Shown here piece by piece: positions 1 through 9,062 of a stretch of 10,186 nt of DNA (position 1 is its first letter; the number at the start of each line of letters is the position of its first letter). The stretch lies in the IMG/VR virus record IMGVR_UViG_2695420380_000017. One strand, given 5' to 3'. A program made the position numbers and the translations under genes. The notes beneath the pieces are model-generated. The model was not told the origin of the DNA, searched no databases, and saw only the letters and a program-made list of their open reading frames with translations. The stretch is from a virus. Lineage: Duplodnaviria; Heunggongvirae; Uroviricota; Caudoviricetes.

Positions 1-141
1 TTACTGCTTACACTGTAAGAACGCCGCAAACTCCGCTCCCCAGAAGCTCATCCGTATTTCACACAGCGAACCGTGCAACATCCAGATGATGAGGATTGCC
101 GTCACGCAGAACGTGATGGTCGTAAGCGATTTTTGCGACAT
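1..141 (-). CDS. hok: Hok/Gef-family type I toxin, small membrane peptide (46 aa: MSQKSLTTITFCVTAILIIWMLHGSLCEIRMSFWGAEFAAFLQCKQ)
   Basis: Hand translation of minus strand from ATG (complement of 139-141) to TAA (complement of 1-3); not in the ORF track because it is short. N-terminal hydrophobic helix followed by SLCEIR ... EFAAF, matching the Hok/Gef signature (R1 Hok: ...[25 protein letters not shown], from memory). AAGGAG RBS about 8 nt upstream of the ATG. Confidence 0.7.
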   Translation of the reverse strand: MSQKSLTTITFCVTAILIIWMLHGSLCEIRMSFWGAEFAAFLQCKQ

Positions 142-271
142 AGCACTTGCTCCTTTTCCGGAGAGGCGCTAACCTTTCACTTGTCAAGGTAATGCGGTTA
201 GGGCCTCGGTTAAACAGAGATGTTTTCCGGGGCCTTTCCACATCTGGCCTTCGGGTATTCCCTCCGACCAT
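59..271 (-). CDS. mok: mok-like overlapping reading frame (70 aa) that would couple translation to hok
   Basis: 70-aa ORF in a different frame that starts upstream of hok and overlaps most of it, the arrangement and size known for mok in hok/sok loci. The protein itself has no recognisable motif; the call rests on position only. Confidence 0.35.
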   Translation of the reverse strand: MVGGNTRRPDVERPRKTSLFNRGPNRITLTSERLAPLRKRSKCYVAKIAYDHHVLRDGNPHHLDVARFAV

Positions 272-331
272 CAGCCGAAAGGCACCCGCGCGTAATCTAT
301 CGCTTTTTTGTTACTCCGGCAATTCTGCCTG

Positions 332-592
332 TTAATTCTGAGGTAAAGGCAAGCTCATCTGATTGTTTCCCCTGTGTGAAGCTGGCAGATCATGCCACGG
401 GATATCTTCTGAAGAGTGAACGCCGGAGGCGTGTTTTGATGTGAATTTATGGAAAGCTTCCAGTGTTGAGAAGCATACGCCGCATTCCAGATTGTTACAC
501 TGGTAATACTTTTGCCGCACGGTGTTTGAATCATTTTCCGGACGACTGGTGCGGATACGGGCAGATGCGCCACAAAGCGGACAACGGAACAT
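332..592 (-). CDS. ogr: Ogr/Delta-family zinc-finger late transcription activator
   Basis: N-terminus MFRCPLCGASARIRTSR...YYQCNNLECGVCF matches P2 Ogr (MFHCPLC...RTSR...YHQCQNVNC...) with the four-Cys pattern. Strong RBS AAGGGAGG just upstream; lies downstream of gene D as in P2. Confidence 0.85.
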   Translation of the reverse strand: MFRCPLCGASARIRTSRPENDSNTVRQKYYQCNNLECGVCFSTLEAFHKFTSKHASGVHSSEDIPWHDLPASHRGNNQMSLPLPQN

Positions 593-603
593 AGCGACCT
601 CCC

Positions 604-2364
604 TTAACGTAGTGCAGGGGCTATTCTAAGTTGTTCTGGCTCATACTCCAACAGCCAGTCCGTTTCGAGCGAAAAGCGGTGATTTAACTCTTGAAGAAAT
701 AGGCTTTGATACGATTTATCCAAAGCCTGTAAAAGATTGGAATGTTTTTTNNNNNNNNNNNNNNNNNNNNNNNNNNNNNNNNNNNNNNNNNNNNNNNNNN
801 NNNNNNNNNNNNNNNNNNNNNNNNNNNNNNNNNNNNNNNNNNNNNNNNNNNNNNNNNNNNNNNNNNNNNNNNNNNNNNNNNNNNNNNNNNNNNNNNNNNN
901 NNNNNNNNNNNNNNNNNNNNNNNNNNNNNNNNNNNNNNNNNNNNNNNNNNNNNNNNNNNNNNNNNNNNNNNNNNNNNNNNNNNNNNNNNNNNNNNNNNNN
1001 NNNNNNNNNNNNNNNNNNNNNNNNNNNNNNNNNNNNNNNNNNNNNNNNNNNNNNNNNNNNNNNNTGGCTGTATATACGAACAACGGGAATATTTCTTCTT
1101 TGACTTGATGACGCCACTCTTCGCATTCCAGCGATACAACTTGAACTGGCTCATTTCTCTTTTCTTTATAATAAAAATCGTTTTTATCCCTTTCTGTTGG
1201 AGTAAGAGATAACAAAGGACCAATTTCTTTTGAAATTATACTGGATAGCGGTGTTTCCAAAGCTCCCCCAGCGTAAGGCATTCTTTCTGTTACGCCACAT
1301 ACACTACGCCATTTTCCTTTGGGGGCGGTAGGGGCTGAAGGTAGGTCAATCCTTTTGCTTTCAGTCAGCTCTTCCATTATCTCCCAATTAAATCCACACA
1401 GACGAAAATCTCCTTTTGCTGTAAATGTTACCACAGCACGTTCAGCGATAGTATAACCTGTGTTTTGTAATAAAAACGACAGCGGGTAATTTATTGCCTT
1501 CGGATTAATATGAGTATGACAGTTTTTCAGTATTTCTTCACACTGCTTTTTCCAAAGTGGATAATGTTTTTCTTTATAAAGAGAAATATCATCTGCTGAT
1601 ACAGGGAAATACTCCTGTTGACTAAATGACTTGATGATTTTTTCTAGTGATTGTGGGGTAGTTTGTTCATTGTCAAAGTTTGTAACCAATGGGAATGCAT
1701 CCGTTAGTTGACAAAGCAAATTATCAACTTCATATTCAGATAAAGCTGTATAATAAGGAAGTACAATATTTAATTGCTCGTCATCGGCTACTTTAATGCT
1801 GAAATCGGGCATAGACTGAGTGAATTGCTTCAGCTTAGCTTCCAGCAATTTAATTTGTTTATCCTTTTCATCTGGCTCAGCAGGAAGCAACCATGAAGAA
1901 GGCACTTTATAGCAGATTATATTATGTTTTATTGCTGAAAAACGTGGACCGCTATCATTGGTAATGATTGCCACCTCCGAATCTGGATCGTCAGCGCAAT
2001 ACCCTGCCGCAATACCAACAAAACGATCGTCGGCCTCCTGATAATCCAATTGTTCAGATAACTGTTCACATGGTTTCAGGCTTAGATCCATGGTAAGAAA
2101 AACTCGCGGCGAGCGTTCACGAATAACAAGAGTCATGTCAGTTGAATCAACTACTTGATTAAATAGGCTAGCAGCCTTCCTTGCTTTTTTGGATAGGCGG
2201 GAATTACCTTGCCCTTTCTGGCGGTCAATCTCTTGCTGAATGGGCCTTGTAATAATGATACATACTTCATCACAAGCAGTAATCTCGGAAAAATTTACCT
2301 GCGTCAAGTCCTTGCATTGTAGAAAAATGTTTGAGTCTGGGAATAAATACAGCTTTTTGTTCAT
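604..2364 (-). CDS. AT-rich cargo ORF, 586 codons, PIN-like predicted nuclease N-terminus and uncharacterised C-terminal ~430 aa (interrupted by N run 751-1064)
   Basis: Long ORF with GAGG RBS 5 nt before the ATG (complement of 2362-2364). Visibly AT-rich against the GC-rich flanking phage genes. N-terminal ~150 aa carries a PIN-like acidic pattern: LYLFPDSNIFL, QQEIDRQ, ADDPD, AIITNDSGPRF. Sits between D and ogr, which are adjacent in P2. Confidence 0.75.
   Translation of the reverse strand: MNKKLYLFPDSNIFLQCKDLTQVNFSEITACDEVCIIITRPIQQEIDRQKGQGNSRLSKKARKAASLFNQVVDSTDMTLVIRERSPRVFLTMDLSLKPCEQLSEQLDYQEADDRFVGIAAGYCADDPDSEVAIITNDSGPRFSAIKHNIICYKVPSSWLLPAEPDEKDKQIKLLEAKLKQFTQSMPDFSIKVADDEQLNIVLPYYTALSEYEVDNLLCQLTDAFPLVTNFDNEQTTPQSLEKIIKSFSQQEYFPVSADDISLYKEKHYPLWKKQCEEILKNCHTHINPKAINYPLSFLLQNTGYTIAERAVVTFTAKGDFRLCGFNWEIMEELTESKRIDLPSAPTAPKGKWRSVCGVTERMPYAGGALETPLSSIISKEIGPLLSLTPTERDKNDFYYKEKRNEPVQVVSLECEEWRHQVKEEIFPLFVYTAXXXXXXXXXXXXXXXXXXXXXXXXXXXXXXXXXXXXXXXXXXXXXXXXXXXXXXXXXXXXXXXXXXXXXXXXXXXXXXXXXXXXXXXXXXXXXXXXXXXXXXXXXKKHSNLLQALDKSYQSLFLQELNHRFSLETDWLLEYEPEQLRIAPALR
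751..1064. other. Run of 314 N inside the cargo ORF
   Basis: Directly visible; about 105 codons of the cargo protein are unreadable. Confidence 1.
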
Positions 2365-6137: not shown

Positions 6138-9062
6138 TATCCGGGTCGCTTTCAGCGCCGTTGACAGGCTGACCCGGCCTGCCGAAAACGCCCGCCGCCT
6201 GATGGGGCAGTTTGGTGACTCCATCCAGCGAACGCAGGGGGCGATCAAAAATCTCGAGCGTCAGGCGCGTTCATTTGAGCGCGCCCGTGACGCTGTCAGT
6301 AAAGCGGATGCGGGCATCGTGAAAGCACGACGCCAGCTTAACGCCCTTAATCAGTTACAACGCACGGGTACAGTGCTCAGCGAAAAACAACAAAAGCTGA
6401 TGCAGCAGTTAAGCACCCGGCTTGAACGCCTGAATGAATCGCGCACACGGGAAATTCAGAAAATGCGGGAACTTGGCGGAGAGCTGAAACGCCACGGCAT
6501 TTCCCTGACAGGCAGCGATAACACCATCCAGCAGGCCATCAGACGCACCGGACAATACAACAACCAGCTTGAACGCGAACGGCGGGCGCTTGCGCGTGTA
6601 ACGCAGGCGCGTGAGCGGTATTCACGCGCGCAGGAAACAGCGGGAAAACTGAAAACAGGTGGTGCGCTGGCAACAGGTGCGGCGGCAGCGGGCGGCTATG
6701 CTGCCGGGCGTTTTTTGCAGCCCGCTATCGGGTTCGGGAAAGAGATGTCCCGTGTTCAGGCACTGACGCGAATCGATAAAAACAGCCCGCAGTTTAAGGC
6801 GCTGCGTGAGCAGGCGTTAAAACTTGGCTCTGAAACGCAGTTCACCGCAGGCGATGCCGCCAGTGGACAGGCATTTCTTGCAATGGCTGGTTTCACACCG
6901 CAGGCCATTCAGGCTGCGCTTCCCGGCGTGCTGAGCATGGCAACGGCTGGCGGTATGGACCTCGGCGAGACGGCGGATATTGGTTCCAATATCCTGACGC
7001 AGTTCGGCCTCTCTGCTGACCAGATGGACCGGGTCGGTGACACACTTACCGCAGCGTTTACCCGTACCAACACTGACCTTCGCGCACTGGGCGAAACCAT
7101 GAAATATGCAGGTCCGGTGGCGGGTAAGCTGGGAATATCGCTGGAGCAGGCCGCAGCGATGGCGGGCGTGCTGGCGAAGATGGGTATCAGGGGGAGTGAT
7201 GCAGGTACAGCGTTGCGTAAAAGCCTGGCCAATCTGTCATCACCGCCAAAGGCAGCGGCAGAAGCACTGAAAGAGCTGGGGGTGTCAGTTGCTGACGCCA
7301 AAGGCAAAATGCGCCCGATGGAGAATGTGCTGGCCGATCTCTATAAAGCCACCCGCAAATACGGGGAGGTTGACCGGGTATCGTTCTTTAAGGACATTGC
7401 CGGAGAAGAGGCTTTCACATCATTTATGGGCCTCGTTGATGCGGCAGGTGACGGCTTCTTAGCCAAACTGAGAAAAGAACTTGAAGGCGCGCGCGGTGAG
7501 GCAGAACGCACGGCAAAGGTTATGGCCAATAACCTTGATGGCAACCTGAAATCACTCGGCAGTGCATGGGAAGGTCTGCGTATTCGCATCAGTGATCTGG
7601 TTGACGGTCCGCTGCGTTCTGTCACGCAGTGGCTCACGCGGGTTGTCTCAAAGGTGACGGCGCTGGCGCAGGCCCACCCGGCACTGACGCGCCAGTTACT
7701 GATAGCGGGAGGCGCACTGCTGGCGACAACAGCAACGGTTGGTTCGTTGTCTCTGGTTATTGGGGTGCTTCACGGGAAGCTGGCTACGTTGCGTCTCGGT
7801 TTTTCTCTCCTGACCGAATCAATGAATGTTGTCAGGGTTCTGCCTGCATTATGGGGAATGGTGACGGGTTCCGTTTCTTTACTTGGTGGCGCTATCGGGG
7901 CGCTGTTCAGTCCGGTTAGTCTTATCGTGGCTGCGCTTGCCGGAGCTGCCGTTCTTATCTGGAAATACTGGGATCCCATCAGGGCATTTTTTGCCGGGGT
8001 GTTCAGCGGGATTATGGAAAGGCTGACCCCGTTGCGCGAAACCTTTGAACGNNNNNNNNNNNNNNNNNNNNNNNNNNNNNNNNNNNNNNNNNNNNNNNNN
8101 NNNNNNNNNNNNNNNNNNNNNNNNNNNNNNNNNNNNNNNNNNNNNNNNNNNNNNNNNNNNNNNNNNNNNNNNNNNNNNNNNNNNNNNNNNNNNNNNNNNN
8201 NNNNNNNNNNNNNNNNNNNNNNNNNNNNNNNNNNNNNNNNNNNNNNNNNNNNNNNNNNNNNNNNNNNNNNNNNNNNNNNNNNNNNNNNNNNNNNNNNNNN
8301 NNNNNNNNNNNNNNNNNNNNNNNNNNNNNNNNNNNNNNNNNNNNNNNNNNNNNNNNNNNNNNNNNNNNNNNNNNNNNNNNNNNNNNNNNNNNNNNNNNNN
8401 NNNNNNNNNNNNNNNNNNNNNNNNNNNNNNNNNNNNNNNNNNNNNNNNNNNNNNNNNNNNNNNNNNNNNNNNNNNNNNNNNNNNNNNNNNNNNNNNNNNN
8501 NNNNNNNNNNNNNNNNNNNNNNNNNNNNNNNNNNNNNAAACCCAAAGACAACAAACCGCTCACANNNNNNNNNNNNNNNNNNNNNNNNNNNNNNNNNNNN
8601 NNNNNNNNNNNNNNNNNNNNNNNNNNNNNNNNNNNNNNNNNNNNNNNNNNNNNNNNNNNNNNNNNNNNNNNNNNNNNNNNNNNNNNNNNNNNNNNNNNNN
8701 NNNNNNNNNNNNNNNNNNNNNNNNNNNNNNNNNNNNNNNNNNNNNNNNNCAGTAAGCCTGCCCCCGCAATTAATATCACACCCGTGGTCCCGGCTCCGCT
8801 GCCTCCGGCGCTGGTCCCTGTTGTTGCGGCCAGCTCCCGCCCGGTGGCGGAGGCCATACGCTCTCCAGTGGCATCAGTTCCTGTAACTTCCCGTAACCGG
8901 GAGCCTGTTGCCTCCGGATTTGGTGGTGAAATTCATGTTCATCTGCATAACGTTGTTACGCAGAATCCCCGCGAACTGGCGAAACTGGTCGGTGAAATGG
9001 TCAGGGCAGAAATGGAACGGCGCGCCCGTGCCGGGCGTGGCAGTTTTTACGATAAAGATTGA
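6124..9062 (+). CDS. T: Tail tape measure protein (P2 gpT family), interrupted by two N runs; start may be 6115 or GTG 6088
   Basis: Long ORF between E' and U: coiled-coil-like Arg/Glu/Gln-rich N-terminus, Ala/Gly-rich middle, hydrophobic stretch LLIAGGALLATTATVGSLSLVIGVLHG. After the N runs the open frame (8751-9062) ends FYDKD* with TGA at 9060-9062 overlapping the U RBS. Reading frame before and after the N runs differs by one (see findings). Confidence 0.8.
8052..8537. other. Run of 486 N inside the tape measure gene
   Basis: Directly visible. Confidence 1.
8565..8749. other. Run of 185 N inside the tape measure gene, separated from the previous run by a 27-nt readable island (8538-8564)
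   Basis: Directly visible. Confidence 1.

What the first reader, a model, noticed from the sequence alone, without database searches (positions are those of the whole stretch)
1..331. Unannotated hok/mok-type type I toxin locus immediately downstream of ogr
A 46-codon ORF missed by the ORF track encodes a peptide with a hydrophobic helix and the Hok/Gef hallmark SLCEIR...EFAAF. A 70-codon frame overlaps it in the manner of mok. Hok peptides depolarise the membrane, and hok/sok loci are known to stabilise mobile DNA and to exclude phage T4. Here it sits at the ogr-distal end of the prophage region, either as a second cargo gene or as the host flank. The cognate Sok antisense RNA should be on the plus strand around 200-330 but I could not define it; there is a T-run at 301-309.
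Basis: partly seen in the sequence, partly recalled or inferred. Interest (0 to 1): 0.5.

Follow-up and report, generated by a model that had tools for sequence, protein, structure and literature searches.

The report
Prophage-borne Hok/Sok toxin-antitoxin cassette
The 46-codon ORF is a real Hok membrane toxin with the RNA switches of a hok/Sok toxin-antitoxin cassette, carried at the end of a P2-family prophage, but it is common, already annotated and close to an experimentally tested toxin, so it is ordinary.

Summary
Confirmed but already known. Window 1-141 (minus strand) encodes a 46-aa Hok/Gef peptide: Pfam 29 bits against a cut-off of 22, PHROG 251 at E 1e-22. RefSeq already calls it 'Hok/Gef family protein'. 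The cassette occurs in 1555 of 5426 complete E. coli genomes and in phage P88. A peptide differing by one residue (cluster 72) is listed as cloned for a toxicity assay in a 2026 preprint and is not among the three named non-toxic ones.

In 42 distinct relatives the about 410-nt mRNA keeps the R1-type switch: tac-fbi end pairing, tac-ucb, and GAGG pairing with ucb or dcb, with coupled compensatory changes. The 3' hairpin, fbi and terminator lie just outside the window.

Sok is predicted on the plus strand at about 182-246, from a conserved TTGCTC-17-TAACCT promoter. The T-run at 304-309 is the spacer of the hok promoter, not a Sok terminator.

The 70-codon 'mok' frame exists here but is not conserved. 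A leader ORF reads into hok in only 20 of 42 relatives, and none starts at the R1 position.

A 25-bp att repeat (the ihfA terminator) places hok inside the prophage, so it is cargo, not host flank.

The parts
1..141 (-). hok coding sequence, 46 aa (stop codon at 1-3, ATG at 139-141)
   Evidence: ORF list. Pfam PF01848 29 bits, above the gathering score of 22. PHROG 251 E 1e-22. RefSeq WP_000078923.1 'Hok/Gef family protein'. The ORF is intact in 42 of 42 relatives and median dN/dS is 0.21.
150..155 (-). hok Shine-Dalgarno AAGGAG, 8 nt before the ATG; it can pair with CUCC just upstream
   Evidence: Read from the sequence. A small CUCC/GGAG hairpin appears in the folds.
142..287 (-). hok mRNA 5' leader, with +1 at about 287
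   Evidence: Rfam RF01794 matches 287..128 on the hok-sense strand at E 1.4e-8, 48.4 bits, below the gathering score of 59. The same model matches an R1-type plasmid locus on the hok-sense strand and ends at the hok ATG. Homology among relatives begins at GGGTGCC.
294..322 (-). predicted hok promoter: -35 TTGCCG (322-317), 17-nt spacer, -10 TAGATT (299-294).
   Evidence: Read from the sequence. A TAGAWT-like -10 sits at a fixed distance from GGGTGCC in 41 of 42 relatives, although the upstream contexts differ. It falls below the threshold of the consensus scan.
277..287 (-). tac element (mRNA nt 1-11, GGGUGCCUUUC)
   Evidence: It pairs with fbi: 98.7% of cells are paired, 4 pairs show compensatory changes, 0 of 500 shuffles reach this, and slid controls give 26-46%. 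It pairs alternatively with ucb: 95.7% paired, with 2 compensatory pairs.
229..239 (-). ucb / anti-SD box (mRNA nt 49-59, GGAAAGGCCCC)
   Evidence: It pairs with tac or with the GAGG box: 99.6% paired, with 2 compensatory pairs.
202..209 (-). conserved CCGAGGCC box at the position of the R1 mok SD (GAGG at 207-204)
   Evidence: Almost invariant in 42 of 42 relatives. Its last G covaries with both ucb and dcb. No canonical start codon follows it in 0 of 42.
163..167 (-). dcb-like box GCCUC (mRNA nt 121-125), which pairs with GAGGC in the leader-only fold
   Evidence: Fold of the leader. Helix at columns 85-96/120-131 is 95.7% paired.
147..175 (+). predicted Sok promoter: -35 TTGCTC (147-152), 17-nt spacer, -10 TAACCT (170-175)
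   Evidence: Read from the sequence. The architecture matches R1-type TTGCGC-17-TATCCT. Hexamers and spacing are kept in all 42 relatives, as TTGCTC/TTTACT/TTGACT and TAACCT/TATCCT. It falls below the consensus-scan threshold.
182..246 (+). predicted Sok antisense RNA (about 65 nt; both ends inferred, not mapped)
   Evidence: It folds as a 10-nt single-stranded 5' tail plus a long hairpin: -26.4 kcal/mol, z -4.0. It is complementary to leader nt 42-106. The part of the leader that its 5' tail would pair with (window 182-195) is the most variable stretch of the leader.
   Evidence: ORF list. No family hit. The frame is closed or lacks a start in most relatives, including P88.

Best explanation
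This is an intact hok/Sok-family type I toxin-antitoxin cassette (Hok peptide cluster '72', 46 aa). It is carried as cargo at the ogr end of a P88-like (Xuanwuvirus, P2-family) prophage integrated at the ihfA terminator.

Shown here:
- The toxin gene is under purifying selection.
- The roughly 410-nt hok mRNA region is conserved as one unit, from its 5' end (window 287) to a terminator about 120 nt beyond the window start.
- Phylogenetic pair counts support the two mutually exclusive R1-type folds. In the closed full-length form, tac pairs with fbi and ucb masks a GAGG box. In the open form, tac pairs with ucb and GAGG pairs with dcb.

Inferred by homology with plasmid R1:
- The full-length mRNA is inert, and slow 3' trimming removes fbi.
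- The refolded mRNA is either bound by the short-lived plus-strand Sok RNA (about 182-246) and destroyed by RNase III, or translated when Sok is gone.
- Hok then inserts into the inner membrane and collapses the membrane potential.

Difference from R1: the mok reading frame is not conserved in this cluster. Hok is therefore probably translated from its own AAGGAG SD rather than by obligatory coupling to mok.

Likely benefit to the phage (inferred, not distinguishable here): retention of the prophage, abortive exclusion of phages that shut off host transcription, or help with lysis on induction, as shown for hokW-sokW of the Stx phage Sp5.
For: Toxin:
- Pfam HOK_GEF is above its gathering score and PHROG 251 gives E 1e-22.
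- C27, E28 and the AEFAAFLQCK tail are invariant or nearly so.
- The ORF is intact in 42 of 42 relatives and median dN/dS is 0.21.
- A peptide differing by one residue (72_1621) is listed as cloned for toxicity testing. The paper names only three other constructs as non-toxic.

RNA:
- Rfam RF01794 matches the leader at E 1.4e-8. The model matches an R1-type locus on the hok-sense strand.
- The minimum-free-energy fold of the 410-nt mRNA pairs its two ends, z -6.6.
- RNAalifold gives the same end pairing, with 16 compensatory pairs.
- tac-fbi is 98.7% paired, tac-ucb 95.7%, GAGG-ucb 99.6% and the GAGG-dcb helix 95.7%. Slid controls stay at or below 50%, except one neighbouring register of tac-ucb at 69%.
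- The same tac nucleotides (10-11) covary with both fbi and ucb. The same GAGG nucleotide covaries with both ucb and dcb.
- The layout after the stop codon (hairpin, then fbi, then terminator) is collinear with the R1-type locus.

Sok: promoter hexamers are kept in 42 of 42 relatives, and the predicted RNA forms a stable hairpin with a free 5' tail.

Cargo status:
- The 25-bp repeat GGCCGCTCTGCGGCCTTTTTTCTTT flanks a 32-kb prophage and occurs once in K-12.
- The cassette is present in phage genomes such as P88, Chuche and PhiR44_2.
- The same D-ogr-hok-host order is seen at several Salmonella integration sites.
Against: - No expression data exist for this locus: transcript ends, Sok itself, 3' processing and RNase III cleavage are all inferred.
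- Both promoters fall below the consensus-scan threshold, and the proposed Sok terminator has a weak U-tract.
- The Rfam score is below the gathering threshold (48.4 against 59).
- Most compensatory changes follow a single split between an E. coli-type and a Salmonella-type lineage, so the number of independent events is small.
- The fbi box and terminator were read from genomes identical to window 1-750, not from the window itself.
- Without mok, it is unclear how Sok binding 30-100 nt upstream would block hok translation other than through mRNA decay.
Confidence: 0.88

Rival explanations
1. This is a canonical hok/mok/sok locus. The 70-codon frame (271..59) is a true mok whose translation is needed to open the hok ribosome-binding site, and Sok acts by blocking mok.
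For: The frame exists, has the same length as R1 mok (70 codons) and overlaps hok. In R1, mok translation up to the hok SD is required (PMC9841398). An in-frame AUU lies about 10 nt after the conserved GAGG in this variant and in 9 other E. coli-type relatives.
Against: The AUG at 271 is 16 nt from the 5' end, inside the tac stem, without an SD and outside the region complementary to Sok. Only 20 of 42 relatives have any ATG/GTG/TTG-started leader ORF reading into hok, and these start at six different positions. P88 and most Salmonella copies have none. In 16 of 42 relatives no frame is open from GAGG to the hok SD. There is no family hit.
Confidence: 0.12
2. This is a decaying, non-functional hok relic, like most hok loci of E. 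coli K-12. It is carried along passively and never expressed.
For: Chromosomal hok loci are often inactive (established knowledge; Pedersen and Gerdes 1999, recalled, not read here). mok is missing. The promoters are weak by consensus. One relative (L097) has lost the promoter and tac. The prophage in strain E2863 looks degraded: it carries an IS3-family transposase gene, a partial replication gene and a short integrase.
Against: The ORF is intact in 42 of 42 relatives with dN/dS 0.21. Promoter hexamers and four regulatory helices are kept, with compensatory changes. The cassette is found in 29% of complete E. coli genomes and in viable phages. A near-identical peptide is reported toxic.
Confidence: 0.08
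3. The locus belongs to the host chromosome flank, not to the prophage.
For: It is the last gene before host DNA, and the source contig ends at its stop codon.
Against: The att core repeat lies about 145 bp beyond the hok terminator (window -288..-264), and K-12 has an empty site with one copy. The cassette lies within the genome records of P88 and other Xuanwuvirus phages. It travels with ogr to different host sites in Salmonella.
Confidence: 0.01

Closest known systems
Hok cluster 72 of Escalera-Maurer et al. (bioRxiv 10.1101/2025.08.07.668861), e.g. peptide 72_1621
   Same: 45 of 46 residues are identical (T8A), with the same length and the same coding sequence type. The cluster is listed as a high-abundance cluster. 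The peptide is listed as cloned for the arabinose toxicity assay and is not among the three constructs reported non-toxic. That paper also reports enrichment of hok in prophages.
   Different: Nothing material for the toxin. That study did not analyse mok, Sok or mRNA structure for the cluster.
hok/mok/sok of plasmid R1 (parB)
   Same: - The mRNA plan is collinear: tac at the 5' end, ucb, a GAGG box, dcb, the hok SD next to the Sok -35, then a 3' hairpin, fbi and terminator.
- The antisense promoter has 17-nt spacing.
- Rfam RF01794 matches both loci on the sense strand.
   Different: - The peptides are only 39% identical over 31 residues.
- The leader is about 27 nt shorter.
- No conserved mok reading frame follows the GAGG box.
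- It sits on a prophage rather than a plasmid.
HokA of E. coli K-12 (NCBIfam NF007290)
   Same: It is the best-scoring named subfamily. They share the M-x-QK start, the WM..SLCE core and the AAFL-x-C tail, with 38% identity.
   Different: The score of 34 bits is far below the equivalog cut-off of 89, so it is not a HokA orthologue.
hokW-sokW of Stx2 prophage Sp5 (Takada et al. 2021, PMC8621323)
   Same: Both are prophage-borne hok/Sok type I systems in EHEC-type E. coli. hokW-sokW is a plausible functional analogue: there, Sok is lost on induction and Hok speeds lysis and phage release.
   Different: HokW is a 51-aa HokC/D-like peptide, 31% identical to this one. The copy of the present cluster in Stx phages is a separate locus next to lom.

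Membership tests
Hok/Gef toxin family (Pfam PF01848) | Sequence match to the family profile above the curated threshold | tested here: met
   29 bits against a gathering score of 22, E 8.1e-7, covering residues 9-44. PHROG 251 E 1e-22.
Hok/Gef toxin family (Pfam PF01848) | A peptide of about 50 aa with an N-terminal hydrophobic helix and the conserved L-C-E core | tested here: met
   46 aa. Residues about 6-23 are hydrophobic (by eye). S25-L26-C27-E28 are invariant or nearly so in 27 homologues. C and E at these positions are among the few residues conserved family-wide.
Hok/Gef toxin family (Pfam PF01848) | Toxic to the cell when expressed (membrane damage) | not testable with these tools
   Literature only: construct 72_1621 (one residue different) is in the tested set and is not listed among the three non-toxic constructs.
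HokA orthologue (NCBIfam NF007290, equivalog) | Score at or above the equivalog cut-off | tested here: not met
   34.1 bits against a cut-off of 89.
[quoted passage not shown] | 5'-3' end pairing of the full-length mRNA (tac-fbi) | tested here: met
   Present in the minimum-free-energy fold and in RNAalifold. 11 pairs are 98.7% paired and 4 show compensatory changes, against 26-46% in slid controls. The fbi box lies outside the window.
[quoted passage not shown] | Alternative tac-ucb pairing, with the SD box switching between ucb and dcb (coupled covariation) | tested here: met
   tac nt 10-11 covary with both partners. The last G of GAGG covaries with ucb and with dcb in the same two sequences. 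There are few independent events.
[quoted passage not shown] | A cis-encoded antisense Sok RNA with its own promoter, complementary to the leader | tested here: inconclusive
   TTGCTC-17-TAACCT is kept in 42 of 42 relatives. The predicted 65-nt RNA folds as a tail plus hairpin, z -4.0. There are no transcript data, the consensus scan found no promoter, and the U-tract is weak.
[quoted passage not shown] | A mok reading frame that starts after the GAGG SD and is translated up to the hok start | tested here: not met
   0 of 42 relatives have a canonical start in SD range of GAGG. 16 of 42 have no open frame from GAGG to the hok SD. The 70-codon frame of this window is present in a minority of relatives only.
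[quoted passage not shown] | Match to Rfam RF01794 at the gathering score | tested here: not met
   48.4 bits against 59, though E is 1.4e-8 over the full model length. An R1-type locus scores 87.2.
[quoted passage not shown] | 3' exonucleolytic activation and RNase III decay of the Sok-mRNA duplex | not testable with these tools
   Inferred from R1 (PMC9841398) and from hokW-sokW.

The most novel reading that the evidence does not exclude
This very common Hok cluster keeps the whole R1 folding switch and the GAGG box but has lost mok. The GAGG box, exposed only in the processed mRNA and covered by Sok, might then serve as a ribosome standby or loading site for direct hok translation. Alternatively, Sok may act purely by RNase III-dependent decay. 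Either way this would be a mok-independent variant of the hok/Sok control circuit.
Probability: 0.3. Interest if true: 0.4.

Novelty: already known. Interest (0 to 1): 0.15.

Why it matters
It matters little as a discovery. The gene is annotated in RefSeq, its family is catalogued, and a near-identical peptide is reported toxic.

It is useful for annotation. Prophage-boundary callers that cut at the last gene's stop codon remove the fbi box and terminator of this cassette, and ORF tracks with length cut-offs miss the toxin.

It also adds a small point for type I toxin-antitoxin biology. A widespread prophage-end Hok cluster shows coupled covariations for the R1 switch, yet has no conserved mok. 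That makes the need for mok testable in a natural variant.

Tried and rejected
- The consensus promoter scan found no promoter in the locus. Both predicted promoters score 6-8 of 12, below its threshold, so they rest on conservation instead.
I used an alignment of homologues instead.
- The genome-contig scan returned only 7 loci.
- Collecting cassettes by BLAST gave fragmented hits. A profile search with nhmmer replaced it.
- My first register for tac-ucb was off by one (69% paired). The +1 slide control exposed the error, and the corrected register gave 95.7%.
- PADLOC has no model that matches Hok or the neighbouring PIN protein.
- I rejected the T-run as a Sok terminator. No hairpin precedes it, and it lies upstream of the hok -10.
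- I rejected identity with hokW: it is a different peptide cluster.
- I rejected the host-flank reading.
- The window is not strain E2863 beyond position 750 (96% identity). Its likely source is an IMG/VR contig that ends at the hok stop. Two 3'-UTR versions occur among loci identical to window 1-750, and both carry the hairpin, AAGGCACCC and a terminator.

Full report
**Observation.** The window begins with the stop codon of a minus-strand ORF (1..141). It encodes MSQKSLTTITFCVTAILIIWMLHGSLCEIRMSFWGAEFAAFLQCKQ. A second minus-strand ORF of 70 codons (59..271) overlaps it. Six T stand at 304-309, and ogr (332..592, Pfam Ogr_Delta 52 bits) lies directly upstream on the same strand.

**The peptide is a Hok.** It passes the Pfam Hok/Gef gathering score (29 bits against 22, E 8.1e-7) and matches PHROG 251 at E 1e-22. 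Its best NCBIfam match is HokA, but at 34 bits against a cut-off of 89, so it is not a HokA orthologue. A database search returned 70 relatives from Escherichia, Shigella, Salmonella and Klebsiella; those that carry a name are all named Hok/Gef family protein, and the rest carry no name. The L-C-E core and the AEFAAFLQCK tail are invariant or nearly so.

**Where it comes from, and how common it is.**
- Window 1-750 is 100% identical to many complete E. coli genomes, including O26 and O111 strains. In all of them PGAP annotates this ORF as 'Hok/Gef family protein'.
- The 453-bp cassette is found in 1555 of 5426 complete E. coli genomes, with up to 7 copies per genome.
- It also occurs at 91-97% identity in P2-family phages of the genus Xuanwuvirus, such as P88, Chuche, PhiR44_2 and 500465-2. 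An 83%-identical copy sits next to lom in Stx phages.
- A 2026 preprint on Hok diversity lists this peptide type as high-abundance cluster 72. Its Table S2 lists construct 72_1621, which differs from ours by one residue, among the constructs made for toxicity testing. The text reports 42 of 45 tested homologues as toxic and names three others as the exceptions. It also reports enrichment of hok in prophages.

**Cargo or host flank.** In strain E2863 the prophage lies between btuC and ihfA. The 25-bp sequence GGCCGCTCTGCGGCCTTTTTTCTTT, which is the ihfA terminator, occurs at both ends of a 32-kb insert and once in K-12. The copy on the hok side lies at window -288..-264, about 145 bp beyond the hok terminator, so hok is inside the prophage. 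In Salmonella the same order (gpD, ogr, hok, then host DNA) is seen at several different host sites. That also shows the cassette travels with the phage. The window probably derives from an IMG/VR contig that ends at the hok stop codon. This is why the 3' part of the locus is missing from it.

**The mRNA.**
- *Leader.* Rfam RF01794 ('sok') matches window 287..128 on the minus strand (E 1.4e-8, 48.4 bits, below the gathering score of 59). On an R1-type plasmid locus the same model matches the hok-coding strand, from the mRNA 5' end to the hok ATG, at 87 bits. The model therefore describes the hok leader in sense orientation.
- *Extent.* Homology among relatives starts at GGGTGCC (window 287) and ends at a terminator about 410 nt downstream, whatever the flanking context.
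- *Promoter.* A TAGAWT-type -10 sits 6 nt upstream of GGGTGCC in 41 of 42 relatives. Here the promoter reads TTGCCG (322-317), 17 nt, TAGATT (299-294).
- *3' UTR.* After the stop codon come a covarying hairpin, the box AAGGCACCC, which is complementary to the 5' end, and a terminator. This is the same order as in the R1-type locus.

**The folding switch.** The 410-nt RNA folds with its two ends paired (-176.7 kcal/mol, z -6.6). I assembled 42 distinct full-length cassettes. RNAalifold recovers the end pairing and finds 16 pairs with compensatory changes. Pair counts for four named helices are:

| Helix | Cells paired | Compensatory pairs | Slid controls |
|---|---|---|---|
| tac-fbi | 98.7% | 4 | 26-46% |
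| tac-ucb | 95.7% | 2 | at most 69% |
| GAGG-ucb | 99.6% | 2 | at most 48% |
| GAGG-dcb | 95.7% (main helix) | 2 | at most 50% (both helices of the hairpin) |

Two observations are the coupled covariations expected for alternative folds. Nucleotides 10-11 of tac change together with both fbi and ucb. The last G of GAGG changes together with both ucb and dcb in the same two sequences. This is the scheme described for R1: the closed form has tac/fbi with the SD masked by ucb, and the open form has tac/ucb with SD/dcb (PMC9841398). One caveat applies. Most of these changes follow a single split between an E. coli-type and a Salmonella-type lineage, so independent events are few.

**Sok.**
- On the plus strand, TTGCTC (147-152), 17 nt, TAACCT (170-175) has the same layout as R1-type TTGCGC-17-TATCCT. 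It is kept in all 42 relatives.
- A transcript starting near 182 and ending near 246 folds into a 10-nt free 5' tail and a long hairpin (-26.4 kcal/mol, z -4.0). It is complementary to leader nt 42-106, which includes the GAGG box.
- The stretch that would pair with the Sok 5' tail (window 182-195) is the most variable part of the leader. This would fit copy-specific recognition where several copies coexist; that reading is an inference.
- The transcript ends are not mapped and the U-tract is weak, so Sok remains a prediction.

**mok.**
- The 70-codon frame starts 16 nt from the 5' end, inside tac, has no SD, and lies outside the Sok target.
- Across 42 relatives, hok is intact in all (46-47 aa; median dN/dS 0.21).
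- A leader ORF that starts with ATG, GTG or TTG and reads into hok exists in only 20 of them, with start sites at six different positions. It is absent from P88.
- At the R1 position, just after GAGG, no canonical start occurs in any sequence. In 16 of 42 no frame is open as far as the hok SD.
- I conclude that mok is not a conserved part of this cluster. Hok probably uses its own AAGGAG SD (150-155).
- The hok start region can also pair with codons 36-41, which show almost no synonymous variation. That suggests an additional RNA-level constraint.

**Function.** By homology, loss of the unstable Sok lets the processed mRNA be translated, and Hok damages the inner membrane. For a prophage this could mean retention of the element, abortive exclusion of phages that shut off host transcription (known for R1 hok/sok and T4; recalled, not read here), or help with lysis on induction, as shown for hokW-sokW of Sp5. 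No terminator separates ogr from hok. Transcripts from ogr may therefore run into the cassette during lytic growth; this is an idea only.

**Verdict.** This is a real, probably active hok/Sok-family cassette, but it is already annotated, catalogued and very common. The mok claim, the Sok coordinates and the terminator guess are not. The cargo question is settled in favour of cargo. The only mildly new point is the lack of a conserved mok in a cluster that otherwise keeps the full R1 switch.

Noticed in passing
window 751-1064, 8052-8537, 8565-8749: Three runs of N. The first lies inside the gene between ogr and gpD, and the others lie in the tape-measure gene. The first run is not length-true: there is a 26-nt offset against strain E2863, so ORFs that cross it are unreliable.
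   Followed up: partly
window about 836-2338 (minus strand); L001 6836-8338: A 500-aa protein with an N-terminal PIN_4 domain (Pfam 33.9 bits) and no PADLOC hit is inserted between ogr and the gpD tail gene. P88 has nothing at that position, so this is a separate cargo gene of unknown role.
   Followed up: partly
L106-L109 (1358-2777); L100 and L101 (2354-3274): Salmonella P2-like prophages carry two or three diverged hok cassettes in tandem, about 497 nt apart, between ogr and host DNA. Possible origins are repeated integration and decay at one att site, or duplication.
   Followed up: no
window 1; L012, L014 and about 50 other IMG/VR loci: Many IMG/VR prophage contigs end exactly 3 nt after the last Hok codon, that is at the stop codon. 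Boundary calling at gene ends therefore cuts off the hok 3' UTR (hairpin, fbi, terminator) and about 270 bp of prophage DNA up to att.
   Followed up: yes
L005, L007, L009: Records labelled Planococcaceae MAG, Vagococcus sp. and Xanthomonas pisi carry this enterobacterial hok at 74-96% peptide identity. Contamination or mis-binning of those assemblies is likely.
   Followed up: no
L097-L099, 2850-3000: In one Salmonella lineage the cassette lacks the promoter and the tac 5' end, and homology starts only at about mRNA nt 35. The Hok ORF is nevertheless intact. It is probably a silenced copy.
   Followed up: no
window 287-332; L001 5886-5913: No terminator-like site lies between the ogr stop (332) and the hok promoter. 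The first minus-strand terminator downstream of ogr is the hok terminator, so ogr transcripts may read through hok.
   Followed up: no
L004 7753-11716 (strain E2863, not the window): The E2863 copy of the prophage looks defective. Its integrase is short (753 nt), it carries an IS3-family transposase gene next to a partial replication endonuclease gene, and it carries a ParM-type partition pair.
   Followed up: no
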